Origin: a virus
Length of the DNA stretch: 64,000 bases
Direction: 5' to 3' (one strand)
IMG/VR virus record: IMGVR_UViG_3300042564_004498
Location: 64,001-128,000 of that record
Shown here: positions 100-19,750 of the stretch, piece after piece
Layout of the letters: each line of letters begins with the position of its first letter
Position numbering within the stretch: the first letter of the stretch is position 1
Program-made: the position numbers and the translations under genes
The notes under the pieces: generated by a model
What the model was told of the DNA's origin: nothing
Database searches by the model: none
The model's input: the letters and a program-made list of their open reading frames with translations, nothing else

Positions 100-495
100 T
101 TAATCTTCATCAGAAATGAAATCCGAAATTGATGGTTTACTATACCAATTTGAAATCAATCCATTTTCACCAATATGTAAATCAATGTAATCACCGTATT
201 TGCCAGGAAGTAATGCGTTAGGCACATAATCTTCCTCAATTGACAATATAGTATTCCCTTCTGAATCTAAAAGAAAGTATGAACCTTCATCACAAACTTT
301 CATACTCAGATGACCTGTTTCACCTTTAGGCCAATCTATTACTCTACCTTCATCAATGTTAATAACTGCGGACCACATATCACCTTTTCTTAATGGAAAA
401 TTGTTAGGTATGTCTTCTTCATCATACCTTACCGCAACATCAACTTTTACCATTGTAATTTCAACTTCTTTCTCTACTTTAATTTTTACTTTCAT
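100..495 (-). CDS. hypothetical phage protein
   Basis: 131 aa ORF in a tightly packed minus-strand run. Confidence 0.75.
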   Translation of the reverse strand: MKVKIKVEKEVEITMVKVDVAVRYDEEDIPNNFPLRKGDMWSAVINIDEGRVIDWPKGETGHLSMKVCDEGSYFLLDSEGNTILSIEEDYVPNALLPGKYGDYIDLHIGENGLISNWYSKPSISDFISDED

Positions 496-500
496 TTTGA

Positions 501-632
501 TTATTTCTTTTTAACTTTTGGTGTTAATTCTGTTAATGGTTTCCCACATTTAATACATTTCGCAATTTTATCCGTGTCCCAAACCTCATCCATCTTAAAT
601 GTGTGATTACATTCCGATTCTTGTTTCTCCAT
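501..632 (-). CDS. small Cys/His protein (43 aa)
   Basis: Read manually: MEKQESECNHTF..AKCIKCGKPL..; fills the gap between neighbours. Confidence 0.55.
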   Translation of the reverse strand: MEKQESECNHTFKMDEVWDTDKIAKCIKCGKPLTELTPKVKKK

Positions 633-635
633 CTA

Positions 636-1136
636 TTATGATTTTAATATTCGTATCGCTCTGTTGGCACATTCATTTGTTAATCCATAACCTATGTCCA
701 CACAATCAGGGTGATTAATATTATTGGCGGTTCTAACAAAATTCCCTCTTTGGTGTTGTAAGAAATCATTATCATCATCAAAGATAACATATTTTTCCAC
801 TTCAGGATGTTCATCCAACCAATATTCAACTTCGTGACCTCTTTCAATTTGGTCTAAAAATACAAATGAACCTTCGTTAAATAAGTCATTACAATCCGGT
901 GTGATATCAATAACCTCACCAGGTAACCCTCTAAACTCCCACATATCTTTCATTCTCTGTAATCCGCCAAATCTCCAAGTTGAGGATATCACAATTTTTG
1001 CACCTGTTTCTTCGATAACTCTTTTAAGATTATCAACTAAATGTTGATGGAAGGTACCACCATATTCGTCGTGACCTTGAGAATACACATTCAACACTCC
1101 ATCTATATCTAAAAATATAACCTTAATCTTTTCCAT
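636..1136 (-). CDS. HAD-superfamily phosphatase (Swiss-Army-knife RNA-repair-like HAD)
   Basis: FLDIDGVLN motif I, ISSTWR motif II, IFDDD motif IV. Confidence 0.85.
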   Translation of the reverse strand: MEKIKVIFLDIDGVLNVYSQGHDEYGGTFHQHLVDNLKRVIEETGAKIVISSTWRFGGLQRMKDMWEFRGLPGEVIDITPDCNDLFNEGSFVFLDQIERGHEVEYWLDEHPEVEKYVIFDDDNDFLQHQRGNFVRTANNINHPDCVDIGYGLTNECANRAIRILKS

Positions 1137-1419
1137 CTTTTTTAAACTTTAAATATTGTTTATTATGTTCTTCTTCTAATTGGTTAGGAGCAAACTCTTC
1201 CCAATGTTCTACAATTCTTTGAGCACATACTTTGTGTAATTCTTCTAAAAATGCCACACAGTGATGGTCTTCTAAAGCATCAATATATTGATTGGCTTGT
1301 TCTTCGTAGTTTGGTATACTCCATGTTTCACTTGATATAACAGCCTCTTCTAATGTTACATTTATCTCATGTAAAAACACATGAACATATGTACTATTTC
1401 CTAATCTAATTGATTTCAT
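1123..1419 (-). CDS. hypothetical protein
   Basis: 98 aa ORF overlapping the next gene. Confidence 0.65.
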   Translation of the reverse strand: MKSIRLGNSTYVHVFLHEINVTLEEAVISSETWSIPNYEEQANQYIDALEDHHCVAFLEELHKVCAQRIVEHWEEFAPNQLEEEHNKQYLKFKKDGKD

Positions 1420-1546
1420 TTTTCTTCTTTGGTATTTCGTAATTTTCTTCTAACCACTCAAATAATTCGTTGGGTAATATACATGGGTAAAAATCTATAA
1501 AATCAAATAAGATTTCTTCCTAATCGTTTTCATTATTTTCTTCCAT
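1406..1546 (-). pseudogene. small ORF interrupted by an in-frame TAG
   Basis: MEENNEND*EEILFDFIDFYPCILPNELFEWLEENYEIPKKKNEIN*; TAG at 1520-1522; fills the gap between neighbours. Confidence 0.45.
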
Positions 1547-1558
1547 ACAATATGTTTC

Positions 1559-2065
1559 TTAATCTTTATTTAATTGTTCAATAATATATTGAATACCTTT
1601 TTCAGTTAATTTATAACCATCAGGAAATTCACCATGACCGTCACTTACCCTAAATAAATGAATAGGGTTGATTAAACTTAAACCTTTTAGAACTTTGTGT
1701 TGTCGAATCACTCTTTTAGCACCTTCTCTTTTCTCATCGTTGAAAATGTCCTCAATTTTAATTTCTTCTTTTGGATATTGAGCCATTGGTACTTCCATCA
1801 TTAAATCTTCTTTTTCAACTAAATAAGGTCTAGCATGCCATATACATTTTGAGTGGTTTTGACCTGAATTATTTGGGTCAACTTCTCTTCCCATAGGATT
1901 AACCAATACTTCAGTAAACTCAACCTCATCTCCATCATAAACCGCAACACCACTAATCCAAACATAATCAGTCATTGTAACAAAATTTGAATGCAATGGT
2001 AACGCTCCTAAAATATCGTACTGAATGAACCAACTACCGTAAAGTTTTACTAATTTACCTTTCAT
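1559..2065 (-). CDS. hypothetical protein
   Basis: 168 aa ORF. Confidence 0.7.
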   Translation of the reverse strand: MKGKLVKLYGSWFIQYDILGALPLHSNFVTMTDYVWISGVAVYDGDEVEFTEVLVNPMGREVDPNNSGQNHSKCIWHARPYLVEKEDLMMEVPMAQYPKEEIKIEDIFNDEKREGAKRVIRQHKVLKGLSLINPIHLFRVSDGHGEFPDGYKLTEKGIQYIIEQLNKD

Positions 2066-2068
2066 AAT

Positions 2069-2278
2069 CTATTTGTTTTTTAATTGTTCAAACCAATTTT
2101 TTACGTCACTTGGAAGTACATAAGGACACCTAATTAATAATTTTAATACTTCTTCCTTACTATAACTTCTTTCTTGTTGAGAAAATAAACTTGGTAGTAT
2201 TTCATTAACTAATATTTCAACATCAATTGAGTTACCTTTATTGTAACCCCACTTTGCTAGTTCTGTTATAAAGTCCAT
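2069..2278 (-). CDS. hypothetical protein
   Basis: 69 aa ORF with 3-nt spacing to neighbours. Confidence 0.65.
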   Translation of the reverse strand: MDFITELAKWGYNKGNSIDVEILVNEILPSLFSQQERSYSKEEVLKLLIRCPYVLPSDVKNWFEQLKNK

Positions 2279-2281
2279 ATC

Positions 2282-2515
2282 TTATTTCTTTTTAAATTTA
2301 AAAATCTTGTCTAATCCGACCCCTAAATAAATAAGAATAAGATATGCAGGAGGAGACAAAATCAAAGAAGTAAGAAGTACAACTGGAGATACAGGTGTAA
2401 ATTGATGCCCCGTAATACTATATGATATCAAATCAATAATAGTTATTATTAATCCTAAAATTAATGTACCCATGAAACCGATTGCCGTAATTATTGTTGC
2501 GATTCTTTCAAACAT
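2282..2515 (-). CDS. small two-TM membrane protein
   Basis: Two hydrophobic stretches; TATCTTTG promoter on the minus strand at about 2537-2544. Confidence 0.65.
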   Translation of the reverse strand: MFERIATIITAIGFMGTLILGLIITIIDLISYSITGHQFTPVSPVVLLTSLILSPPAYLILIYLGVGLDKIFKFKKK

Positions 2516-2576
2516 AACTCATCTTTTTATTAAGTACAAAGATAACATTATTATTTGTCCTAACCAAATATTTTAT

Positions 2577-2584
2577 TATCTTTG
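2577..2584 (+). promoter_or_regulatory. Bacteroidota-type -7 element TAnnTTTG (representative copy)
   Basis: TATCTTTG preceded by TTTG about 20 nt upstream. Also at 3669 and 5530 (+), and on the minus strand near 13770, 15190, 18227, 19262, 19397, 19535, 19842, 33800, 46708, 47242, 54380 and 54918, always upstream of starts. Confidence 0.8.
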
Positions 2585-2588
2585 TCGT

Positions 2589-3092
2589 ATGATATTAGAC
2601 CTTACAAAATACAGCATTGAAGACCTTGTTTCTTTAAAAAATGAAATCAACAATCATTTACACTTTTATGTGGATGGATATCTTTATATTTGTAATGTTC
2701 GTTCATATGGACGACAATGGAAACAGAATGTTAATAACTTACATTCCCTTCAAGAACTTTGTAACCAATACGATGGTTATGATGGTATTGTGGATATCTA
2801 TTCCACAAACCCAAACCTTTCTGAGATTGAGAACTACGGCAATGTAATGTACATTGTCTCTGAGGAAGATTATGAGAAATGGAAACAATATGATTATCTT
2901 ACCTCCACAGTTAGTGATATCAATCATAAGTTGGATGTATGGGAAAGCCGTGAACAAATGTCATTCCGAGACCGACCGACCTTTGCTCCGTATTATAATC
3001 GTGAGGAACTTGCAGGTCTTAAGAAAGAGATTGTTGAATATGATATGTCTTTTGTTGCTCCTGTTAGTGTAAAGAGAGTATATGAGGAGTAA
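2589..3092 (+). CDS. hypothetical protein
   Basis: Start reassigned to ATG 2589 (MILDLTK), 4 nt after TATCTTTG. Confidence 0.7.
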   Translation: MILDLTKYSIEDLVSLKNEINNHLHFYVDGYLYICNVRSYGRQWKQNVNNLHSLQELCNQYDGYDGIVDIYSTNPNLSEIENYGNVMYIVSEEDYEKWKQYDYLTSTVSDINHKLDVWESREQMSFRDRPTFAPYYNREELAGLKKEIVEYDMSFVAPVSVKRVYEE

Positions 3093-3097
3093 AAAAG

Positions 3098-3147
3098 ATT
3101 ATTACCAAAATGTGTAATAATCTCCATTATTACCAAAATGTGTAATA
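3098..3147. repeat. 22-nt direct repeat x2 with internal palindrome
   Basis: ATTATTACCAAAATGTGTAATA at 3098 and 3126; TATTAC..GTAATA inverted arms. Confidence 0.85.
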
Positions 3148-3222
3148 CCTCATCAAAAACTAATTTTTACACAACACTTTATTATAACTTTCACACAAAA
3201 CAATATTACCTTTCATGGTAAG

Positions 3223-3248: not shown

Positions 3249-3618
3249 TTGTGATGATTGGTAATGTATTATCACAGTTTTTTACTTTTTTAACATAAAT
3301 GTCTGTTGGTTCCCCGACATAACTATAAACTAATTGCCAAATCTCATCAATTATATCATCATACATTTTACGGTCAGCTTGTGTCACAGGAAAATATTTG
3401 GTCCCATGGCCACCAATAACTTTAACATCTATTCTGTAATGTGAGAATCCAAATTCTTGATTTGATGCCAATTCCCTGTTGTGTGGTGCAATAACTTTCA
3501 CACCACAAACAATTCCATCATGTGAGGGTAAAAAATTTGTTTCCAATAACTTGGTTATCATTGGAGATAAATCTTTCTCTGTTTCTTCTTTTATTATTCG
3601 TCTAATAAGTTCTCTCAT
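3244..3618 (-). CDS. hypothetical protein with N-terminal 'LIRRIIKEE' tag
   Basis: 124 aa; TATTTAT 5 nt upstream of ATG. Confidence 0.75.
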   Translation of the reverse strand: MRELIRRIIKEETEKDLSPMITKLLETNFLPSHDGIVCGVKVIAPHNRELASNQEFGFSHYRIDVKVIGGHGTKYFPVTQADRKMYDDIIDEIWQLVYSYVGEPTDIYVKKVKNCDNTLPIITR

Positions 3619-5510: not shown

Positions 5511-5542
5511 ATAATTTATTCTATTATCGTATCTTTGTATCT

Positions 5543-5806
5543 ATGACAACAATAGAAAAACACGTAGTTAAATTCATTGAGGATAAATTCGCATTCCCAT
5601 ACCTTTATTACGATAAAGTGGAACAAACATGGGCAAATGAATTCTTTTTATTCGATATTAAATCAGGTACAATGTATGTTAGTGATGAGGTTAAAGACTC
5701 CTTGTATAAAAAATATGGTAAAGGATATATTTCTCAGGTTCTCCTTAAAGTCGTTGACGCTTGGTTCTTCAAAACTTATAAATTGACAGTTAATACAATT
5801 GAATAG
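5543..5806 (+). CDS. hypothetical protein related to the downstream paralog array (no N-terminal tag)
   Basis: C-terminal WFFKTYKLTV motif; host-type promoter upstream. Confidence 0.7.
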   Translation: MTTIEKHVVKFIEDKFAFPYLYYDKVEQTWANEFFLFDIKSGTMYVSDEVKDSLYKKYGKGYISQVLLKVVDAWFFKTYKLTVNTIE

Positions 5807-5836
5807 ATTAGTTGTATTACATTATATTTATAAAAT

Positions 5837-6115
5837 ATGAATAAGTACATTATAACTGAACAGCAGAATGACAAATTGATGGAATTGATGAAAAAATTTG
5901 CCAATCAATATATTGAAGAACGAGTAATTCAAACTGATGTTGAAATTGAATATTCAAATGAAAAAGGTGCTTATATTCTATATCCTGTTTTTTATGTTAA
6001 AAATAAAGAAAATTTCCCACATCATATTTATAAACATATTTTAGCACAACGAGTTGAAGATATGTTTGGTGTTCCTGTTCATTCCTCATCCGCACGAGTT
6101 AAAGTAATTGATTAA
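5837..6115 (+). CDS. MKYIITE-family protein
   Basis: MNKYIITEQQ; C-terminal EDMFGVPV. Confidence 0.8.
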   Translation: MNKYIITEQQNDKLMELMKKFANQYIEERVIQTDVEIEYSNEKGAYILYPVFYVKNKENFPHHIYKHILAQRVEDMFGVPVHSSSARVKVID

Positions 6116-6120
6116 AACAT

Positions 6121-6999
6121 ATGAGATATATTATAACTGAATCACAATATCAAAAATTACAAGAACAACGAGTTAAAGGTGAAGAAATTACACCAGGAAA
6201 ATATGTTGTTCATACTTCTAACCCTTTAAATAGAGATAACATTTCTACCACAGGTCTTCAAGTATCTTTGGGTGAATGTTATTTAATTTATGCCGATAGT
6301 AATTACGGTGAAGATGAAGAATGTGTTCCCGCAGTATTTGCCACAAATAGTATAAAGAAAAAAGATATGTTTGATTCAACATATGATGATGACATATGGA
6401 TTATTGATACAGAAATCGCGGGAGTCCAATGGTATAAAGACGCTCATTTTGAGGGTGGTGATACTAAACATATTGTTACCTTTGAAGATATCCCTGTCGA
6501 AGCAATTAAATTAGTTCAGGAAGGAACAGGTGGAGACACTTGGAATCACCATAATGATGAAACTGAGTTAACATTAACAGAAATGATTAAGTTAGATATC
6601 AAAGTTGGTGACACTCTAATGGGCGGAAAATTTAAGAATAAAAAAATTGTTGTTAAGACAATAGATAAGAATGATAAAGGTGATATAACAATCAATGGTA
6701 AACCTCTTTTAAGATTTAGGATATTAAAAGAAGATAAGTATCGATTACTTAGAAGAGAAGGTGATATGAAACATAGAATTGATAATCAACTTATGATGTC
6801 TAAACTTCAAAATGATTTATATTTTGTACCGTTAGAACATTTAATTTTACACATTGCAGATAATGTAGCAATTGAGATGTCTAACGAATCTAACTTAGGT
6901 GATGATGAGTATATCACATTCAGGAATCAAATAAAACAATATATTCGTAATAACTTTTATGAACATATTAAAAAGTTTTGGGAATCAAATCAATTATGA
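6121..6999 (+). CDS. MKYIITE-family multidomain protein with ART/Tpt1-like domain
   Basis: MRYIITESQY; VHTS..I..TGL..AVFAT..IPVEAIKLV pattern. Confidence 0.7.
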   Translation: MRYIITESQYQKLQEQRVKGEEITPGKYVVHTSNPLNRDNISTTGLQVSLGECYLIYADSNYGEDEECVPAVFATNSIKKKDMFDSTYDDDIWIIDTEIAGVQWYKDAHFEGGDTKHIVTFEDIPVEAIKLVQEGTGGDTWNHHNDETELTLTEMIKLDIKVGDTLMGGKFKNKKIVVKTIDKNDKGDITINGKPLLRFRILKEDKYRLLRREGDMKHRIDNQLMMSKLQNDLYFVPLEHLILHIADNVAIEMSNESNLGDDEYITFRNQIKQYIRNNFYEHIKKFWESNQL

Positions 7000-7370
7000 A
7001 ATACGTAATACCTGAAAACAGGATGAAAAATCTTGTTATAAATTATTTGGATAGTATTGATTGGAGGATTTTAGAATCAACCGATGAATCATATCCTCTT
7101 GAGGTATATGAACATACTACGGATAAAGGTCCAACATTTATAGTAAATTGTTTTAAATATAAGTTTGGAGAAACCTGTAATTTACTAATTAGTTCACTTT
7201 TTCACAAAAAGTTAATAAGTCTGTTTGGTAAAGAGACTGTTAGTGGCGGTGAAGATGGTGAACCAAATGTTTTAATTATGGATTGGTTTAACGAATACTT
7301 TAAAACTAATGTTCACGATTATCGATATGTAGATAGCGATAACTACGCAATAAATAATGATGAATATTAG
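6996..7370 (+). CDS. MKYIITE-family protein
   Basis: Start reassigned to MKYVIPENRM (ATGA overlap); DWFNEYF..V. Confidence 0.8.
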   Translation: MKYVIPENRMKNLVINYLDSIDWRILESTDESYPLEVYEHTTDKGPTFIVNCFKYKFGETCNLLISSLFHKKLISLFGKETVSGGEDGEPNVLIMDWFNEYFKTNVHDYRYVDSDNYAINNDEY

Positions 7371-10377: not shown

Positions 10378-11346
10378 TTAAATTTTACCGATTAGAACTT
10401 TTGGAGTAATCCCTAAAGCCGCTGCTGTTGAAAGTCTTGTGTTACCGGCCACTAAATGATACCTATCCCCAAACTGTAATATCATAGGAGAGTCGTAATC
10501 ACCACTAAGAAGTGCCTTTTTAAGTTTTAATGGTGATGTTTTATTGTATTTTAATGCAAGAGCATTAACTTTTTTGATATCACCTTTTTTAAACTTATTA
10601 GATTCGGTGTTCTCAAGTTTAGACCATATATCTTTTGTTAAATCAACTTTTTTGGCTTTAGTAAATGCAGATACAACATCTTTAACTGTAGTCTCAATAT
10701 CACCATCTCTACTTAAGTCTTGTACTGCTCTTTCAATCTCATCCATCTCACCGTCAATGTACTTATCTTTTTTCTTATGAATCTCGTTTAATTCATTTTT
10801 AAGTTCTAAAAACTCTTCATTAGTACCTGTGATAACATAGTCCTCTAATCTATCAAAGTTTTTAAACCCTAATTCATTCATGACATCAGGATTTTCTTTC
10901 ATTAATTTTAGAAACCCTTTTGTTCCATTGGACTTTGATAAAATAGATTCATTGTAAACAACTTTATTTAAATCAGGATATGTCTTTTGAAATTGTTTCA
11001 TGAATATACCTGACAATACATTAGACATATTCTCTTCAGGACCACCGATATCTTGGATTTTATCGGTATCTTTATACCCCATCTTTTGATGTTGGTACTC
11101 ATGTACCCATTCATGTGAGATAGTCCTTAAGATGTCAATTAATAGTCTTCCTTTGGATAATACATGAATGGTATGATTAGGTAATCTAACACCTGTAGTC
11201 ATGCCATTATTACGCTTATCAACAAAGACAAATTTGACATCATCAGTTAATGATAATTTGTTCTGTAAAAAATTAAGAAACTTCTTTATGGTAGAAGTAC
11301 TTTTTTCATCTAAAGACTTATCTGTTTTTTTTATGGATACTTTCAT
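10378..11346 (-). CDS. zincin (HExxH) plus ParB/Srx-like domain protein
   Basis: SHEWVHEYQH; C-terminal PMIL..YHLVAGNTRL. Confidence 0.7.
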   Translation of the reverse strand: MKVSIKKTDKSLDEKSTSTIKKFLNFLQNKLSLTDDVKFVFVDKRNNGMTTGVRLPNHTIHVLSKGRLLIDILRTISHEWVHEYQHQKMGYKDTDKIQDIGGPEENMSNVLSGIFMKQFQKTYPDLNKVVYNESILSKSNGTKGFLKLMKENPDVMNELGFKNFDRLEDYVITGTNEEFLELKNELNEIHKKKDKYIDGEMDEIERAVQDLSRDGDIETTVKDVVSAFTKAKKVDLTKDIWSKLENTESNKFKKGDIKKVNALALKYNKTSPLKLKKALLSGDYDSPMILQFGDRYHLVAGNTRLSTAAALGITPKVLIGKI

Positions 11347-11362
11347 TATTTATAAATATAAC

Positions 11363-11388
11363 AAAACCCCCGATTTCTCGAGGGTTTC
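11363..11388 (-). terminator. intrinsic terminator
   Basis: Minus strand AAACCCTCG-agaaat-CGGGGGTTTTG. Confidence 0.65.
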
Positions 11389-11582
11389 TATAGTCAGGTT
11401 GGAAGTTCAATAAGTAAATCAAAAAGAGTTTTAAGTTTTGACAAATTAATTTTGAACTGCTGAGTGTTGAGGTTTGAGTACTTTATCATCATCAAAACGT
11501 CGAGGACTCTGTTAATAGTTTGTAGGTAATACGGAATAGTCCATATACATTACATTATATTCCTCCCGAACGCCGAACTATA
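11389..11582 (-). ncRNA. candidate structured ncRNA with internal 7-nt repeats
   Basis: No credible ORF; 5' and 3' ends complementary; about 7 (C/G)T(C/T)AAAN-like units; terminator follows directly. Confidence 0.55.
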
Positions 11583-11766
11583 CTTTAGGAACCCCACACT
11601 CGAAACAAGTTCTAACAATGATGAAATATCCACCTTCGTTATACAACTTCAAATATTCCTCAGGGTTTTCCGGCTTAACATATTTGGTTGGTCTTAGATA
11701 AGTTCTCTCAATCGGTTTTTCTATATGACAAAAATCACATTCGTCAAACTCCACATCACCACTCAT
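11578..11766 (-). CDS. small zinc-binding protein (62 aa)
   Basis: Start reassigned to MSGDVEF; CDFC..CFEC. Confidence 0.65.
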   Translation of the reverse strand: MSGDVEFDECDFCHIEKPIERTYLRPTKYVKPENPEEYLKLYNEGGYFIIVRTCFECGVPKV

Positions 11767-11767
11767 A

Positions 11768-12205
11768 TTATATTTCGGTGATTTGGTTATGGTAATCCAA
11801 AATATCTTGAATTTCTTCAATTTGTCCTTCCATATGTTTAACCATCTCGTCTCTTTCAACAATTGAGATTTCCGTCTCTTTCACCGCAGGTGTCTCACGA
11901 TTTCTTGAGTAGTAATCTTGAACAATCCCCTCATTACAATCCAAGTTTTTAATTCTCGCAATCATAGACTTCAATTCCGACAATCTAAAAATGTGTTGAT
12001 ACACTGGACCATTTGCTCTGTGGATGTTTGTTTTAAGTTCCACTAACTCATTACTCTTTTGATTAAGTAATTCCATTGATTCTTTTGCCGAATATGGTCT
12101 AACATTACCAACCTCAACCGAGTTGTATGTTGCCACTCTAGTGTGTAAATCTAAAATCTCTTTAACCAATCGGTTTTTCTCTTTTAACGCCTTTTTAATA
12201 TTCAT
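11768..12205 (-). CDS. DIP1984/septicolysin-like coiled-coil protein
   Basis: MNIKKALKEKNRL..N..LVELKTNIHRAN..IQDILDYHNQITEI matches my recollection of the family pattern. Confidence 0.7.
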   Translation of the reverse strand: MNIKKALKEKNRLVKEILDLHTRVATYNSVEVGNVRPYSAKESMELLNQKSNELVELKTNIHRANGPVYQHIFRLSELKSMIARIKNLDCNEGIVQDYYSRNRETPAVKETEISIVERDEMVKHMEGQIEEIQDILDYHNQITEI

Positions 12206-12704: not shown

Positions 12705-12763
12705 TGAATTTTCTAACTTACTATTCAATAATAAAACAATAAATTGTATTTGTCAAATATTAT

Positions 12764-13165: not shown

Positions 13166-13744
13166 TTACATTGTTCTCACAATGGCTTCAGTCATACCTT
13201 CCCATTTTTTGATTTGACTTTTTGGGATGGTAAATTCCATCACTCCAATCTCCTCAACTCTTTTTAGGTAATCCTCACGAAAACGAGTAGCTTCAGACGC
13301 ATCTTTGATATACTCTACTTTCATGTGTTTAGCACAAGTCTTACCCATACCTGTTAACATTGAAAACTCATCAGTCAAGTCTCTCATACAAGAAGTACAA
13401 ATTTTACCTCTTTTAATTGTCATTTTTCCTGCGAATTTGACTTCTCTTGGTCCAACACCTAATAAACGGGTGATGTCAATTAAAGTTGGGTTAAATTCCA
13501 ATCCGTAGGTCTCTTTCAATTGTTGACCAATTCTACGACCAATAATTACAGTTTCACCTGGCGTTGGCCAATTCACTTGGATTGTTCTTTCGTTCGCTTC
13601 TTTTTCAAGAATCCTAACAACCGCCGCGTCTTGGTTTGGTGTTAAACCACCGTACTTTGTAATAACATCGTTCATTTTAACAATGAATGAATTAGTACCT
13701 TTGTAATTTTTAACTTTGTCTGATGTAGTAGTAGTCTGTGTCAT
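13166..13744 (-). CDS. DUF6011-like zinc-finger protein
   Basis: CTSCMRDLTDEFSMLTGMGKTCAKH. Confidence 0.7.
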   Translation of the reverse strand: MTQTTTTSDKVKNYKGTNSFIVKMNDVITKYGGLTPNQDAAVVRILEKEANERTIQVNWPTPGETVIIGRRIGQQLKETYGLEFNPTLIDITRLLGVGPREVKFAGKMTIKRGKICTSCMRDLTDEFSMLTGMGKTCAKHMKVEYIKDASEATRFREDYLKRVEEIGVMEFTIPKSQIKKWEGMTEAIVRTM

Positions 13745-14711: not shown

Positions 14712-15164
14712 TTAATTTTGGGCGAATGCTTTATCCGCCCAAGTTTTAGCTCCCATTCTACCCCATAATTCCATGTCACACATGTCAGGGAATGATTCTC
14801 TCATTGTTCCTACGGTTAACACATTCAAAAACCCTTTGTCAATTGAGTACCATTTACCGCTTTTAGTTGTGTAAACATTCATCCAATGACCGTACTCATT
14901 TTTTACTTGGATGTTAACTAAAGAATTTTTTCCGTATCCTCTGATAACTTCAGATGCAGTTCCTTTAGTATCGTGGATATTGATGAACCCCGCTTGACAT
15001 TTATTTGCAATACGGAATTCGTAGTCTTTGTCTTGGTCTTTGATGTGGTTAGAAACCATTACAGAAACTCTTTTGTTTTTTACTGTAGTGTTGAAAGTGC
15101 CGTAGAATACATCTCCAGCTAATGTTCCTTCTGTTACTTTGATGATGGTGTTTGTAGTTGTCAT
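14712..15164 (-). CDS. hypothetical protein
   Basis: 150 aa; own host-type promoter. Confidence 0.75.
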   Translation of the reverse strand: MTTTNTIIKVTEGTLAGDVFYGTFNTTVKNKRVSVMVSNHIKDQDKDYEFRIANKCQAGFINIHDTKGTASEVIRGYGKNSLVNIQVKNEYGHWMNVYTTKSGKWYSIDKGFLNVLTVGTMRESFPDMCDMELWGRMGAKTWADKAFAQN

Positions 15165-15221
15165 AGTCTTATCGTTTTTGTGTATACAAAGATAAGGTTT
15201 AATTCCGAACTACCAAAACTT

Positions 15222-15470
15222 TTATTTATTTTTACAAATATGTTCTTGGTAACAACCTTGACCAGCACCTTCAAGATAACCATCCCTCAAGTCTATGTGT
15301 GTAGATATTAAATAAGGCGTATCTTTACCGCATATTACACATTTATCATATTGTGGTTGTTCAGAGTTTCTCTTTGCCTCCCAATATTTATTTCGGACTT
15401 TTTCACCAAGCATCTCATTATTTGGTGTTTCCAAAATTTCTTTTTCTGTTAAAGTAACTAATATTTCCAT
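15222..15470 (-). CDS. small Cys-rich protein
   Basis: CVICG..GAGQGC. Confidence 0.7.
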   Translation of the reverse strand: MEILVTLTEKEILETPNNEMLGEKVRNKYWEAKRNSEQPQYDKCVICGKDTPYLISTHIDLRDGYLEGAGQGCYQEHICKNK

Positions 15471-15532
15471 AGTGATAATATTTTTTTATAAATATAGAAA
15501 TTAACTATTAGAAAACAAAGGTATTTATTAAT

Positions 15533-15922
15533 ATGATTAATGAAGAAATTTTAACAGAAAAAATTAAATATATTATAATCTCTGAATCAGGAAAAGAATT
15601 TGAGATTATGGATGTCTCATTAGAAATGGATTATTTATCTAACGACAAATTAACAATTGAATCGTATCGTGTTTTTGTTAAATTTGATTATAATAATGCT
15701 ATTGACCCTGATTTACATTATTTCACTAAAGATATTACAAGAATGTCTGAAAAAATGCGTAATATTATTAGCAAATATGTGATAGACTCCAAAGGTAAAT
15801 TAATACAAGGAGGTGAAAATACTTCCATAAGTGAAGGTGATATTTGGACATTAGATTTCGCTGCAGATGAAAGACATATTTTTGATATGTCTTACCTAAT
15901 TGTACCAAATAAAGAAGATTAA
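15533..15922 (+). CDS. hypothetical protein
   Basis: 129 aa; TATTTAT upstream. Confidence 0.7.
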   Translation: MINEEILTEKIKYIIISESGKEFEIMDVSLEMDYLSNDKLTIESYRVFVKFDYNNAIDPDLHYFTKDITRMSEKMRNIISKYVIDSKGKLIQGGENTSISEGDIWTLDFAADERHIFDMSYLIVPNKED

Positions 15923-15924
15923 TT

Positions 15925-16776
15925 ATGAGCGAAAAATTACAAAGACTATCAATAAAAATGGCGGAATTATTCCCCAAAGATGCTTCATCACCTCAAGTAT
16001 ATTATGATTTATTTAAAGACATATACAAACAACAAAAAGACTATTTTTTTAATTTTGACCCATCAGATATTATTAAATTAATATTCTACATATACTCTTA
16101 CAACAAAACAAATAATTTTAAGTTAGCCGATTTAATGTTAAACAAAATAGGGTTTGCTAGTTTATTTATAACTCAAGGAGATAATTACCTTGAAACTTGT
16201 TCAGATTGTGGTGGTAATGGTGAAGTGGATTGTAGTAGTTGTGACGGGTCAGGGGAAGTAGAATGTGATGAATGTTATGGTACAGGAGAAGTAGAATGTG
16301 ATGAATGTCTTGGTAGTGGGGTAGATAGCAATAACCCAGAAGAACAATGTTCTGAATGTAATGGTTCAGGTGTTAGAACATGTGGTTCATGTCACGGAGA
16401 TGCTGAGTTAGATTGTGACAATTGTAATGACGGAAAAGAACTTTGTTATAGTTGTGATTCAACAGGTGAGATTGAAACCGATAAATTATTATATGACTAT
16501 TATGTTATTTGTACTTGGGACACATTTATTAAGGACCGATGTGAATTAAGAGCTGAGACCCTTGAACCAGCTTTATCTGAATATGATTTTGATAGATTAA
16601 GAGACGATTTTATTGTATTAGGATATCAAGAATCTTATCAAAGATTTATTGACGGAATACAAACTAACGAAGTTTATTGTTCCAACTATAGTGATGAACC
16701 AGAATTACATAAAAGTTATTCATCAGATTATAAAATTTGGATGGATGATAGTGATATGATACGATACGAAGGATAA
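15925..16776 (+). CDS. protein with expanded DnaJ-type CxxCxGxG zinc-finger repeats
   Basis: Eight CxxC motifs; no J-domain HPD. Confidence 0.8.
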   Translation: MSEKLQRLSIKMAELFPKDASSPQVYYDLFKDIYKQQKDYFFNFDPSDIIKLIFYIYSYNKTNNFKLADLMLNKIGFASLFITQGDNYLETCSDCGGNGEVDCSSCDGSGEVECDECYGTGEVECDECLGSGVDSNNPEEQCSECNGSGVRTCGSCHGDAELDCDNCNDGKELCYSCDSTGEIETDKLLYDYYVICTWDTFIKDRCELRAETLEPALSEYDFDRLRDDFIVLGYQESYQRFIDGIQTNEVYCSNYSDEPELHKSYSSDYKIWMDDSDMIRYEG

Positions 16777-18299: not shown

Positions 18300-19165
18300 G
18301 CTAATACGATGAGAATACTCGTCTTATTGAGAATCTTTAGAAGGATTATTGTTTCCCTTCGTTTCCACTATCTTTTGGATAGTAATCCTCATTGCCGATT
18401 AGTTAGACTAATCACTCCTTAAGGTAATAACCACTCTCTTACTACTCTACTCTCTTCAACCTTGCGAGCTAACTCAGGATTCGACTCCTTAGAGGTTTTT
18501 GGTAAAAATACGATTGAACTTGGGATTCTTTCGTGCCACGGACCGCCCGTGACTGTGTAGGCAACTTTCGTTATCACCTGACGAACACTTTTCCGTTTTT
18601 CTGTTAGTTTTTCACCTATTGAAAAGTTTGGTTTGTGTTGTGGATGAGTCCAAGTAGAGGTCCGTCTTAGGCTTCGTTATCTTTTGAACAACAAAATACC
18701 TGTCTACTCGGTGAGATATCCCTATCTCCATATTTTAAGATTACTTCAAACGAACACCTTGGTAGATGTTTTGTAAGGTTAGTAGCGACACCACTCGTTC
18801 TCTAACTTACCTTTCGGTTTTAAGTCCCCTCTCATATTGGAGTCCGCAATAATATTGTTGGAACAATATTTTTTGCTTGACCCCTGTGACTTATTCTTAT
18901 TGTTTTTCCAAACTCAGTTCAGGAACCCACATTCCCAAACCATCCAACCACTTTCCCTAAAGCGTCGCCCTCAATACTCAAGGTCGGATGATATGTCACT
19001 TGTATACTCGAGTTCCATTTCTGAAACCGCAATCCTGTTAACACAACAGGTTCACTTTATCCCCCTTTCGAGGTTTATTTGACGACCATATACAGCCGAT
19101 TATCGTTTATTAAATTAGTCTCAATGTCAACCCGAAGGTCTTGATATCAACATCTAAATGGATAA
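18300..19165 (-). ncRNA. GOLLD-like large structured RNA (~870 nt)
   Basis: GC-elevated, no credible ORF, GNRA/UUCG hairpins (CCUC-GAAA-GGGG, ACC-GAAA-GGU, GACC-UUCG-GGUU, CUC-GCAA-GG). The 3' part GAGUAG..AGAGUGGUU..GUGGAAACGAAGGGAAACAAUAAUCCUUC..GUAUUCUCA resembles the GOLLD 3' domain as I recall it; next to tRNAs; ends approximate. Confidence 0.8.
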
Positions 19166-19183: not shown

Positions 19184-19590
19184 TAATTCATATTAATGAA
19201 GGAAAGGTCAACCTTACCGAAGTGGGATTTTAACCCTTCCTTCATTTCAATTGTTTTACAAAGGTAGATGAAAGTTTTGACACTGTCAAATTTTTATAAA
19301 ACTTTTTTCTAACAATCTTACTCTGTTACTACCGATAGTGAGATTTGATTTCGGTGATTGTTAAAGACCAAATAGTGTTACCCGTTTGGTTTACAAAGAT
19401 AAGAAAGTTTTTTTGAACTGTCAAATCTTTTTTTAGAAATTTTGTGTTTATTTTTTTAATGACCAAAGTCAAAAACCATATTTTATAACACACCCTCTTT
19501 CATGGTCTTGGGGTTATCTCCAATTGTTTTACAAAGATATGAATAACTTTTCAATTAATCAAACACTTTTTAAAACTTTTTTTTAATTAG

Positions 19591-19663
19591 TAGCGGGAGA
19601 AGGACTCGAACCTCCGACCTTATGGTTATGAGCCACACGAGCTGCCAACTGCTCTATCCCACG
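19591..19663 (-). tRNA. tRNA-Met(CAU), initiator-like; CCA not encoded
   Basis: Full cloverleaf CGTGGGATAGAGCAGTTGGCAGCTCGTGTGGCTCATAACCATAAGGTCGGAGGTTCGAGTCCTTCTCCCGCTA; C1:U72 mismatch. Confidence 0.9.
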
Positions 19664-19677
19664 ATGTTTGTTGTTAG

Positions 19678-19750
19678 TTGCGTAGGGCCGGAAACGAACC
19701 GACTTGGACTGGCTTATGAGACCAGTGAGATACCTTACCTCCCCCTCGCG
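19678..19750 (-). tRNA. atypical tRNA(CAU) or tRNA-like RNA
   Basis: Anticodon arm CTGGT-CTCATAA-GCCAG; T arm GTCGG-TTCGTTT-CCGGC; C1:A72 mismatch; bulged acceptor stem. Confidence 0.7.

What the first reader, a model, noticed from the sequence alone, without database searches (positions are those of the whole stretch)
11363..12205. DIP1984-like coiled-coil gene plus a closed ~195-nt RNA with heptamer repeats: candidate new ribonucleoprotein system
Seen: in an otherwise tightly packed region, 11389-11582 (minus) is non-coding. Its ends pair (UAUAGUUCGGCGUUCGGGAG with CUUCCAACCUGACUAUA, bulged, with G-U pairs) and a terminator follows directly. Inside is an A/C-rich, probably unpaired tract with ~7-nt period: CUCAAAC CUCAACA CUCAGCA GUUCAAAA UUAAUUU GUCAAAA CUUAAAA CUC (11426-11479). 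It is co-oriented with, and downstream of, a DIP1984/septicolysin-like helical protein of unknown function and a small Zn-finger ORF. Inference: periodic single-stranded repeats are what oligomeric rings or filaments bind (compare TRAP, or CsrB-type sponges), so the RNA may scaffold or neutralise this protein, as type III antitoxin RNAs do. I recognise no described family.
Basis: partly seen in the sequence, partly recalled or inferred. Interest (0 to 1): 0.85.

Follow-up and report, generated by a model that had tools for sequence, protein, structure and literature searches.

The report
Heptad-repeat RNA beside DIP1984-like phage gene
Right behind a small helical-protein gene of unknown function, this freshwater jumbo phage encodes a real, conserved, roughly 195-base folded RNA that carries a row of evenly spaced 7-base units; the RNA is in no catalogue, and this gene-plus-RNA pair recurs in hundreds of phage contigs, so the two probably work together as an undescribed protein-RNA module.

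Summary
Window 11389-11582 (-) is a structured RNA, not a gene. Its ends form a long closing helix (P1) that covaries across 67 copies: 81% of cells paired against 57% in shuffles and 36-44% in slid controls. A variable hairpin (P2) also covaries. The roughly 100-nt interior is conserved in sequence only: UACAA, three GAU motifs, five UCAA units at 7/8/14-nt spacing, and a UUAAAACUC box. No Rfam family matches.

The RNA lies directly 3' of a DIP1984-fold gene (fold match to PDB 3KDQ, Z 12.6) in every homologous locus examined, down to 32% protein identity, including two published huge phages. In one of those the unit is UUAAAAG, but the 7-nt period is kept. Complete genomes hold one copy.

The Zn-ribbon ORF and the terminator are optional. 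The 32-aa ORF inside the RNA is not conserved.

Best reading (about 0.5): the RNA is the cognate binding platform of the predicted dimeric protein. Binding and function are not shown. A type III antitoxin role has no support.

This scan has already noted the same gene-plus-RNA pairing on other DNA (eight notes). I could not confirm the claim in those notes about phage T5.

The parts
11768..12205 (-). DIP1984/DUF6847-like gene, 145 aa; four long helices plus a beta-hairpin; predicted symmetric homodimer
   Evidence: NF038048 E = 1.5e-7, 31.7 bits against a cut-off of 70. PF20935 E = 1.2e-3. AlphaFold pLDDT 92.3. 3KDQ Foldseek prob 1.00, TM 0.62-0.68; VIA Z 12.6. 1152 clusters at 50% identity with E <= 1e-3. 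Dimer model ipSAE 0.57 against a best control of 0.00.
11578..11766 (-). Optional 62-aa Zn-ribbon-like ORF (CxxC...CxxC), inserted exactly between the DIP1984-like stop codon and the RNA; its own stop codon (UAG) then lies in the P1 5' arm
   Evidence: Present in 8 and absent in 9 of the closest viral loci that give a full-length match (the element starts at 3616 or at 3431-3434). tblastn finds it in 2 of 28 representative loci. No Pfam or PHROG hit.
11389..11582 (-). The structured RNA (194 nt): P1, P2, conserved interior, P1
   Evidence: CM R1 228 bits and R2 185 bits. Covariation. No Rfam match.
11549..11582 (-). P1 5' arm (purine-rich; begins 2 nt before the stop codon of the preceding ORF)
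   Evidence: Pairs listed. Stop-codon-to-P1 distance is -8 to +13 nt in 27 of 27 clusters.
11529..11546 (-). P2 hairpin (variable sequence, compensatory changes)
   Evidence: Helix 5: 76% paired, all 6 pairs show double changes. Read directly.
11480..11524 (-). Conserved unpaired motifs: UACAA (11519-11524) and GAY...GAU...UGAU...AGU (11480-11501)
   Evidence: Consensus over 39 clusters below 85% identity. R2 consensus.
11426..11478 (-). Heptad array: CUCAAAC CUCAACA CUCAGCA GUUCAAAA (14-nt step) GUCAAAA CUUAAAA CUC, ending in the UUAAAACUC box
   Evidence: Core alignment of 68 copies. Spacing statistics. Column conservation of 80% or more at UCAA and the box.
11389..11417 (-). P1 3' arm (pyrimidine-rich; preceded by the conserved UUGAAC)
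   Evidence: Cognate against non-cognate arm test.
11363..11388 (-). Intrinsic terminator-like hairpin plus U tract; a facultative neighbour, not part of the motif
   Evidence: Present 0-5 nt after P1 in 12 of 27 clusters by script, plus 2 read by eye. In 10 others the next ORF starts 9-29 nt after P1.
12728..12756 (-). Sigma-70-like promoter match (TTGACA-17-TATTAT). It may start the unit: 170-aa ORF, DIP1984-like gene, Zn ORF, RNA, terminator
   Evidence: Consensus scan only, 11 of 12 matches. Not evidence of function, and the host may use another promoter type.

Best explanation
The 194-nt RNA is the dedicated partner of the DIP1984-fold protein encoded just upstream; together they form a ribonucleoprotein module.

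**Shown**
- The RNA is made on the gene's strand. Relatives in which a Zn-ribbon ORF is inserted between the gene and the RNA leave no fixed place for a promoter of its own, so it is probably the 3' end of the gene's mRNA.
- It folds into a long, irregular closing helix (P1, about 23 pairs in four segments) and a hairpin (P2).
- These hold open a roughly 100-nt interior that is conserved in sequence but not in pairing.
- The interior carries five UCAA units and one or two UUAA units in a 7-nt register.

**Inferred**
- Several copies of the protein, predicted to be a symmetric dimer, bind the repeated units through the conserved Lys/His/Asn/Gln residues, which from the helix order appear to lie near one end of the helical bundle (not checked on the model's coordinates).
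- The result is either a stable particle that is the working form, or feedback in which the protein titrates onto its own mRNA tail.

The cellular task of the particle is unknown.
For: **Coupling**
- One element, on the gene's strand and directly 3' of the gene, was found in 67 of 67 loci by CM R2, with no other hit in about 291 kb searched on both strands.
- Of those 67, 12 sequences had not been used to build the model, including L059, L135, L146, L147 and the huge phages LR756500 and LR756511.
- Two of three further metagenome-assembled genome (MAG) contigs also hit. The third shows P1 and UCAA units by eye.
- Complete 309-321 kb genomes carry exactly one copy.
- No other neighbouring gene is constant: 192-aa ORF in 10 of 28 loci, 322-aa ORF in 6 of 28, Zn ORF in 2 of 28.

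**Real RNA structure**
- 81.3% of cells paired against 56.8 +/- 0.8 in shuffles.
- 515 cells with changes on both sides against 184 +/- 12.
- Covariation score 0.471 against 0.045-0.094 for slid partners (similar).
- An alignment-free test agrees: each 5' arm pairs best with its own 3' arm, mean z = -2.67.
- G-U cells outnumber A-C cells 142 to 37, so the gene-sense strand is the one that folds.

**Repeats**
- TCAA enrichment and 7/8/14/15-nt spacing.
- The units are conserved at 80% or more across 39 clusters while P1 and P2 vary.
- No covarying helix lies in the interior. UCAA positions are predicted unpaired more often than other positions, 0.55 against 0.41.
- In LR756511 the units are UUAAAAG with the same period. 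That is concerted change, as expected for sites read by one partner.

**Protein**
- DIP1984 fold.
- Homodimer model ipSAE 0.57 against a best control of 0.00. That mark was reached by 20 of 30 proteins solved as pairs of one chain and by 1 of 23 solved as single chains.
- The runs agree in at least 96% of contacts, and partner pLDDT is at least 88. The relative 3KDQ was solved with four chains, so this pass may partly reflect memory of that entry.
- Basic N-terminal helix, +3 in residues 1-10.
Against: - No tool here tests protein-RNA binding, so the coupling is genetic only. Tight linkage would also arise if the RNA merely regulated the gene or its mRNA.
- The protein is not basic overall (median pI 6.75, window copy 5.98), and its C-terminal helix is acidic.
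- The fold has no known RNA-binding relative.
- UCAA is complementary to the conserved UGAU motifs, so the interior could form tertiary or alternative helices rather than lie open. RNAalifold proposed UUGAUGA with UUGUCAA, but support across the family is weak: 67% paired.
- No expression data could be obtained.
- The sequences are related, so the repeat statistics are not independent samples.
Confidence: 0.5

Rival explanations
1. A cis-acting mRNA 3'-end element that does not need the DIP1984-like protein. P1 begins within the footprint of the ribosome that terminates on the upstream ORF, and it ends next to a terminator or the next start codon. The element could therefore couple translation of the upstream gene to mRNA stability, to termination, or to hand-over of ribosomes to the next gene across the base of the stem.
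For: - The stop codon lies -8 to +13 nt from the first P1 base in 27 of 27 clusters, and this holds when the Zn ORF is inserted.
- A terminator follows 0-5 nt after P1 in about half of the clusters. In 10 of 27 the next same-strand ORF starts 9-29 nt after P1.
- There is no room for a conserved promoter of its own.
Against: - Downstream genes differ or are on the opposite strand, so no common downstream target exists.
- P1 and the terminator do not overlap, so no terminator/antiterminator switch is evident.
- A stability hairpin would not need about 100 nt of sequence-conserved interior with a fixed 7-nt register.
- Close spacing is also what a compact phage genome gives by default.
Confidence: 0.25
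2. A trans-acting RNA, or a decoy for a host factor (for example a single-strand RNA-binding protein, RNase or ribosomal protein of the probably Bacteroidota host). It would be inherited with the DIP1984-like gene only because both belong to one expression cassette.
For: - The A/C-rich, G-poor, weakly paired interior is displayed by a stable stem.
- Some copies lie in or beside phage tRNA/GOLLD RNA clusters: L134 and L065.
- Two of three MAG contigs carrying the module are binned as Bacteroidetes.
Against: - No complementarity longer than a low-complexity 14-mer to the 145 kb of this phage that is held.
- Linkage to the same gene family persists to 32% protein identity and through a change of unit sequence.
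- tRNAs lie within 1.5 kb in only 4 of 37 loci.
Confidence: 0.15
3. The 'repeat tract' is really a small protein-coding gene (33-codon ORF 11394-11495, 32 aa from its first ATG at 11492), and the heptad pattern is a by-product of codon usage.
For: Among the closest relatives most substitutions in this ORF fall on third codon positions and the frame stays open. This rests on about 16 substitutions that I counted by hand.
Against: - In 26 other sequence clusters the equivalent frame is cut by stops at different places. There is often no start codon, and the longest ORFs differ in frame, length and sequence (L018 and L020).
- Conservation follows nucleotide motifs (UCAA, UUAAAACUC), not a reading frame.
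Confidence: 0.03
4. A DNA-level element (iterons of an origin, a packaging site or a recombination site), with the inverted repeat acting in DNA.
For: Short direct repeats and a long inverted repeat are also typical of origins. A second, partial copy in one relative (L026) lies at the edge of an inserted gene.
Against: - G-U cells outnumber A-C cells 142 to 37 in P1/P2, so complementarity holds on one strand only.
- Orientation is fixed relative to the upstream gene in all 67 loci.
- A 7-nt period does not match the DNA helical repeat.
- The element often ends in an intrinsic terminator on the same strand.
Confidence: 0.03

Closest known systems
HutP with hut mRNA, and TRAP with the trp leader (Bacillus subtilis): homo-oligomeric proteins that read evenly spaced short triplets in single-stranded RNA (from my own knowledge of these systems)
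   Same: Several copies of a 3-4-nt motif at a fixed short period, arranged in two groups separated by a longer spacer. HutP reads UAG every 7 nt; here UCAA recurs every 7-8 nt. A small oligomeric protein is the presumed reader.
   Different: Those RNAs are 5' leaders that switch a terminator; this one lies 3' of the gene, is closed by a 23-bp helix, and shows no terminator/antiterminator alternative. Those proteins are beta-rich rings, while this one is a helical DIP1984-fold dimer. There is no sequence or Rfam relation.
Type III toxin-antitoxin systems (ToxIN, CptIN, TenpIN)
   Same: A repetitive non-coding RNA encoded next to, and co-oriented with, the protein it is thought to bind; found on mobile elements.
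   Different: Antitoxin repeats are about 34-36-nt tandem units upstream of the toxin gene and separated from it by a terminator. Here the units are 7 nt, lie inside one closed fold, and are downstream. The protein has no PADLOC hit and no endoribonuclease-like fold match. There is no evidence of toxicity.
Ro60 (Rsr) with bacterial Y RNAs (YrlA/YrlB)
   Same: A roughly 100-200-nt RNA whose 5' and 3' ends form a long stem that displays a large conserved loop region. It is encoded beside its protein partner, and some copies sit near tRNA-related genes.
   Different: No TROVE-domain protein is involved, no tRNA-like domain is present (ARAGORN finds none in the element), and Rfam YrlA does not match the element.
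DIP1984 family / Pfam DUF6847 (NF038048, PF20935; crystal structure 3KDQ; often labelled 'septicolysin')
   Same: The protein partner has this fold (Z 12.6) and gives a full-length profile alignment. A Bacteroidota 'putative septicolysin' cluster is among its nearest Atlas neighbours.
   Different: The family has no known function. The full-text search found DUF6847 and DIP1984 in no paper, and 'septicolysin' mainly as a gene label in genome papers, judged from titles and abstracts. The phage clade scores below both curated cut-offs.
RAGATH-27 RNA motif (Rfam RF03100), named as closest known in two earlier notes of this scan
   Same: An orphan structured RNA of unknown function.
   Different: No match to RF03100 at E <= 10 on the window copy, nor at E <= 1 on 20 divergent loci. 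The paper I searched does not mention it in its main text.

Membership tests
DIP1984 family (NCBIfam NF038048) / Pfam DUF6847 (PF20935) | Profile score at or above the curated cut-off | tested here: not met
   NF038048: 31.7 bits against a cut-off of 70, E = 1.5e-7, aligned 5-132 to 4-129 of 149. PF20935: 19.2 bits against 27. Some close homologs carry a precomputed PF20935 hit. I treat it as a divergent phage branch, not a scored member.
DIP1984 family (structure 3KDQ) | Same fold over the whole chain | tested here: met
   Foldseek prob 1.00, TM 0.62-0.68. VIA Z 12.6, rmsd 3.9 A, 140 of 145 residues; the next entry scores Z 8.0.
Any Rfam 15 family (4227 models, including 6S, YrlA, tmRNA, RAGATH-27, freshwater-1, GOLLD) | Covariance-model score reaching the gathering threshold on the element | tested here: not met
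   Gathering scan of the window finds only GOLLD and two tRNAs, elsewhere. At E <= 10 on 11200-11800 there are only chance-level hits. At E <= 1 on 20 divergent loci nothing overlaps the element.
Type III toxin-antitoxin (ToxIN-like) | Tandem roughly 34-36-nt RNA repeats upstream of the toxin gene, separated from it by a terminator | tested here: not met
   The RNA is downstream of the gene in all 67 loci. The repeat unit is 7 nt, inside one closed fold.
Type III toxin-antitoxin (ToxIN-like) | Protein is a ToxN/AbiQ-type endoribonuclease | tested here: inconclusive
   No PADLOC family at E <= 0.1. The best folds are 3KDQ and generic helical bundles. Absence from these lists does not exclude it.
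TRAP / HutP-type attenuation | Repeats lie in a 5' leader that overlaps an antiterminator of a downstream terminator | tested here: not met
   The element follows the gene. P1 and the terminator are adjacent and do not overlap. Half of the clusters have no terminator.
tRNA / tmRNA-like RNA | Cloverleaf or tRNA-like domain detectable by ARAGORN | tested here: not met
   ARAGORN finds only tRNA-Met at 19590-19663 and 19679-19749 in the window, and none inside the element in 37 loci.
Small protein gene | Reading frame conserved among relatives | tested here: not met
   Frames, starts and stops differ among 27 clusters.

The most novel reading that the evidence does not exclude
DIP1984-fold proteins, a large family with a solved structure but no known function, are RNA-binding proteins. 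Their dimers line up on a heptad-repeat platform held open by a long closing stem, forming an ancient ribonucleoprotein particle. It would be carried by jumbo and huge phages and, if the earlier unchecked notes of this scan hold, by bacteria and archaea too, acting on some aspect of RNA or tRNA metabolism during infection.
Probability: 0.4. Interest if true: 0.9.

Novelty: categorically new. Interest (0 to 1): 0.8.

Why it matters
- **A first lead for an orphan family.** The partner protein family is large (1152 clusters at 50% identity with E <= 1e-3), its relative DIP1984 has a crystal structure from 2009, and it has no assigned function. A dedicated RNA partner would be the first functional lead for it.
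- **A new RNA class.** It would add a structured RNA class, absent from Rfam, that is widespread in abundant freshwater jumbo phages and in published huge phages.
- **A rare architecture.** A covarying stem displaying a sequence-conserved, 7-nt-periodic platform is well suited to structural work on how a helical protein reads repeated RNA sites.
- **Directly testable.** The gene and the RNA together are under 900 bp and can be expressed as one cassette.

Tried and rejected
- **Coding reading.** The 32-aa ORF inside the RNA looked coding among the closest relatives (third-position changes) but is not conserved in 26 other clusters. Rejected.
- **Rfam.** Three scans gave no family for the element.
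- **Interior helix.** UUGAUGA with UUGUCAA was proposed by RNAalifold on 10 close sequences and built into the models. Across 67 copies it is only 67% paired and its core pairs never vary. An all-against-all column scan found no covarying interior helix. I leave it as unsupported.
- **MFE folds.** Folds of 27 representatives agree on P1 and P2 only.
- **Global alignment.** RNAalifold on a global MAFFT alignment of all subgroups gave no structure because the arms were misaligned. Covariance-model alignment and an alignment-free arm test were used instead.
- **Trans targets.** No complementarity to the held 145 kb beyond a low-complexity 14-mer.
- **Phage T5 (lead from earlier notes).** Neither NF038048 nor my family profile hits the T5 genome. 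T5.081 (144 aa), which precedes the stable 'RNAX', is not related by hhalign, probability 0.6%. R2 finds nothing in the T5 tRNA region. Not confirmed for T5 itself.
- **Bacterial DIP1984 genes.** The narrower alignment found only three MAG contigs. Whether true cellular DIP1984 genes carry the RNA was therefore not tested here.
- **Cultured phages.** No cultured phage in the GenBank phage collection carries a detectable homolog; the only hits are two uncultured huge phages.
- **DNA search.** blastn of the region against the phage collection gave no match.
Full report
**Context.** The window is part of a 145.5-kb IMG/VR virus record estimated to be 48% complete. Close relatives are complete 309-321-kb genomes. 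The window also holds a GOLLD RNA and two tRNA-Met genes about 7 kb away. The flagged stretch lies on the minus strand, in this order:
- a 170-aa ORF preceded by a sigma-70-like promoter match at 12756-12728;
- the 145-aa gene 11768-12205;
- a 62-aa CxxC...CxxC ORF at 11578-11766;
- 194 nt without a credible gene (11389-11582);
- a terminator-like hairpin at 11388-11363.

**Checking the observation.** With its terminator, the stretch folds at -50.9 kcal/mol, z = -2.2 against dinucleotide shuffles. The heptamer tract is at 11478-11426. The upstream protein is DIP1984-like:
- NF038048 E = 1.5e-7 over its full length, below the curated cut-off, and PF20935 weakly;
- a confident AlphaFold model, pLDDT 92.3: four long helices and a beta-hairpin;
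- that model matches PDB 3KDQ far better than anything else: Foldseek prob 1.00, TM 0.62-0.68, and VIA Z 12.6 against 8.0 for the next entry.

**Is the RNA conserved?** Yes, and more strongly than its neighbours.
- All 19 close viral loci carry it.
- Protein homologs at 45-60% identity, found through a search of 1.84 billion representatives (1152 clusters at E <= 1e-3), have a 160-245-nt gap after the gene.
- Of 336 IMG/VR relatives, the best 80 were fetched, and all of them show the same layout.
- A sequence HMM of the core hits 64 of 69 distinct downstream regions.
- A covariance model built from 10 close copies (R1) found 55 copies.
- A second model built from those (R2) found exactly one full-length hit in each of 67 loci. 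Every hit is on the gene's strand directly after the gene, with nothing else in about 291 kb searched on both strands.
- Hits not used to build R2 include the huge phages LR756511 (E about 1e-4) and LR756500, L146 and L147 at 33-35% protein identity, and two MAG contigs.
- One MAG copy (L156) escapes the model but shows P1, P2 and UCAA units by eye.
- Complete genomes hold one copy.

**Structure.** P1 sequences differ completely between subgroups yet stay complementary. Examples are UAUAGU(U)CAG/CUGACUAUA, AUAUCUG/CAGAUAU, GGGUUAAG/CUUAACCC, GGUUGGG/CCCAACC and CCUGAGA/UCUCAGG.
- On the R2 alignment of 67 distinct copies, 81.3% of cells pair against 56.8 +/- 0.8 in shuffles.
- 515 cells have changes on both sides against 184 +/- 12.
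- The covariation score is 0.471 against 0.158 for shuffles and 0.045-0.094 for slid partners.
- The four P1 segments are 84-94% paired, with up to six pair types per position (the R1 alignment gave the same picture).

These alignments are fitted to the model, so I also ran a test that needs no alignment. The 40 nt after the stop codon form a much better duplex with their own 3' segment than with the 3' segments of unrelated copies: mean z -2.67, with no better non-cognate partner in 32 of the 61 copies (my count from the output). G-U cells outnumber A-C cells 142 to 37. The fold therefore exists on the gene-sense strand, that is, in RNA.

P2 is a variable hairpin with compensatory changes. 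The interior shows no covarying helix, and thermodynamic folds disagree there.

**The conserved interior.** Over 39 clusters below 85% identity, the invariant positions are UACAA after P2, GAU...GAU...UGAU...G, then UUCAA, UCAA, UCAA, UUCAA, UCAA and the UUAAAACUC box.
- TCAA is the commonest 4-mer: 4.15 per element against 1.88 in shuffles.
- 67% of successive TCAA spacings are 7, 8, 14, 15, 21 or 22 nt, against 10% in shuffles.
- In LR756511 the units read UUAAAAG, about five times in the same register, before the same box.
- In L147 they are A-rich.

So the period is the conserved property, and the units change in concert.

**What is not part of the motif.**
- The Zn-ribbon ORF is an insertion between the gene's stop codon and P1. 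It is present in 8 and absent in 9 of the closest loci, and its own stop codon takes the same position in P1.
- The terminator follows P1 in roughly half of 27 clusters. In ten others the next ORF starts 9-29 nt after P1.
- No flanking gene is constant.
- The 32-aa ORF inside the RNA is confined to the window's subgroup.

**How it probably works.** Three facts are established: strict one-to-one linkage with one protein family across deep divergence, a stem-closed display of repeated short motifs, and concerted drift of those motifs. The simplest reading is that the protein reads the repeats.
- The protein is predicted to form a symmetric dimer: ipSAE 0.57, best control 0.00. That mark was reached by 20 of 30 proteins solved as pairs of one chain and by 1 of 23 solved as single chains. 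The runs agree in at least 96% of contacts, and partner pLDDT is at least 88. The relative 3KDQ was solved with four chains, so memory may contribute.
- The invariant residues (K10, K58, E77, Q133, N140, with K8, H62, N65, D137 nearby) are polar and, from the helix order in the model, appear to lie near one end of the bundle. That placement is my inference, not a measurement.
- Against this reading: the protein is about neutral overall, its fold has no RNA-binding precedent, and nothing here measures binding.

A purely cis-acting role is the main rival. The stop codon of the preceding ORF lies -8 to +13 nt from the base of P1 in all 27 clusters, so a terminating ribosome must open the stem. 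However, downstream partners vary, and there is no terminator switch. A trans-acting or decoy role is possible but unsupported. Coding and DNA-level readings are rejected.

**Comparison with known systems.** The RNA matches no Rfam family. By analogy it works most like the HutP or TRAP targets (periodic short motifs read by an oligomer). It looks most like Y RNA in outline (paired ends displaying a conserved loop beside the partner's gene). It fails the defining features of each, and those of type III toxin-antitoxin systems; see the membership table. In the full-text search DUF6847 and DIP1984 occur in no paper; the hits are for 'septicolysin', and none of the 15 listed titles or abstracts is a study of what such a protein does.

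**Earlier notes of this scan.** Eight notes on other genomes describe the same pairing of a DIP1984-like gene with a heptad-repeat RNA. I used them as leads.
- Presence in huge phages is confirmed here.
- The HutP/TRAP and Ro-Y RNA analogies match my own reading.
- RAGATH-27 gives no match here.
- Phage T5 itself shows neither the protein nor the RNA with my models.
- The claimed RtcB neighbourhood and the bacterial and archaeal range were not tested.

**Verdict.** This is a real and widespread RNA that is not in Rfam and that my literature searches did not turn up, coupled to a protein family of unknown function. The ribonucleoprotein reading is the best available (about 0.5), but it remains an inference from comparative genomics.

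Noticed in passing
window 18306-18711 (-), with tRNA-Met at 19590-19663 and 19679-19749 (-): A GOLLD RNA (Rfam RF02032, 323 bits) with two tRNA-Met genes just upstream, about 7 kb from the module.
   Followed up: no
L134 (IMGVR_UViG_3300042352_001190) 279-3195: Here the DIP1984-like gene and its RNA sit inside a run of eight tRNA genes. A freshwater-1 RNA (RF02979, 72 bits) lies upstream and a GOLLD RNA (241 bits) about 500 nt downstream. L065 has four tRNAs directly upstream of the gene, and L088 and L111 have a tRNA-Leu. Overall, tRNAs lie within 1.5 kb in 4 of 37 loci.
   Followed up: partly
L026 (IMGVR_UViG_3300032330_001609) 5520-7200: After the normal gene (5520-5957) and full RNA (5956-6151) comes a 280-aa gene on the opposite strand. 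It is followed by a second, partial copy of the RNA: only the 3' half, from the AUUAAUUUGUCAAAAC stretch to the P1 3' arm, plus a terminator. This looks like a gene insertion that duplicated the element's end.
   Followed up: partly
window 11578-11766 (-): The 62-aa Zn-ribbon-like ORF is a clean insertion or deletion between the DIP1984-like stop codon and the RNA, bounded by a short TATA repeat. It is present in about half of the closest relatives and is 87-90% conserved where present.
   Followed up: partly
window 10378-11346 (-): The 322-aa downstream protein has an HExxH-like motif (SHEWVHEYQH) and a C-terminal stretch resembling ParB/sulfiredoxin-type domains (VAGNTRLSTAAALG). It has no Pfam hit. 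A homolog follows the RNA in 6 of 28 representative loci.
   Followed up: no
window 13166-13744 (-): A 192-aa protein with a weak DUF6011 zinc-ribbon match lies within 1.5 kb of the DIP1984-like gene in 10 of 28 representative loci, upstream in nine of them. It is the most frequent protein neighbour, but it is not constant.
   Followed up: no
L154 (phage T5, AY543070) 14849-16052: T5 has a superficially similar layout in its tRNA region: a 144-aa hypothetical gene (T5.081) followed by the 719-nt annotated stable 'RNAX' of unknown function and then tRNA-Arg. The protein is not related to the DIP1984-like family by hhalign, and model R2 does not hit the RNA.
   Followed up: partly
L155-L157 (GTDB genome contigs): The only three matches in 185,579 species genomes are short-to-medium MAG contigs. 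Two are labelled uncultured Bacteroidetes (Lake Loclat) and one Polynucleobacter. They are probably phage contigs binned with a host, which hints at Bacteroidota hosts.
   Followed up: no
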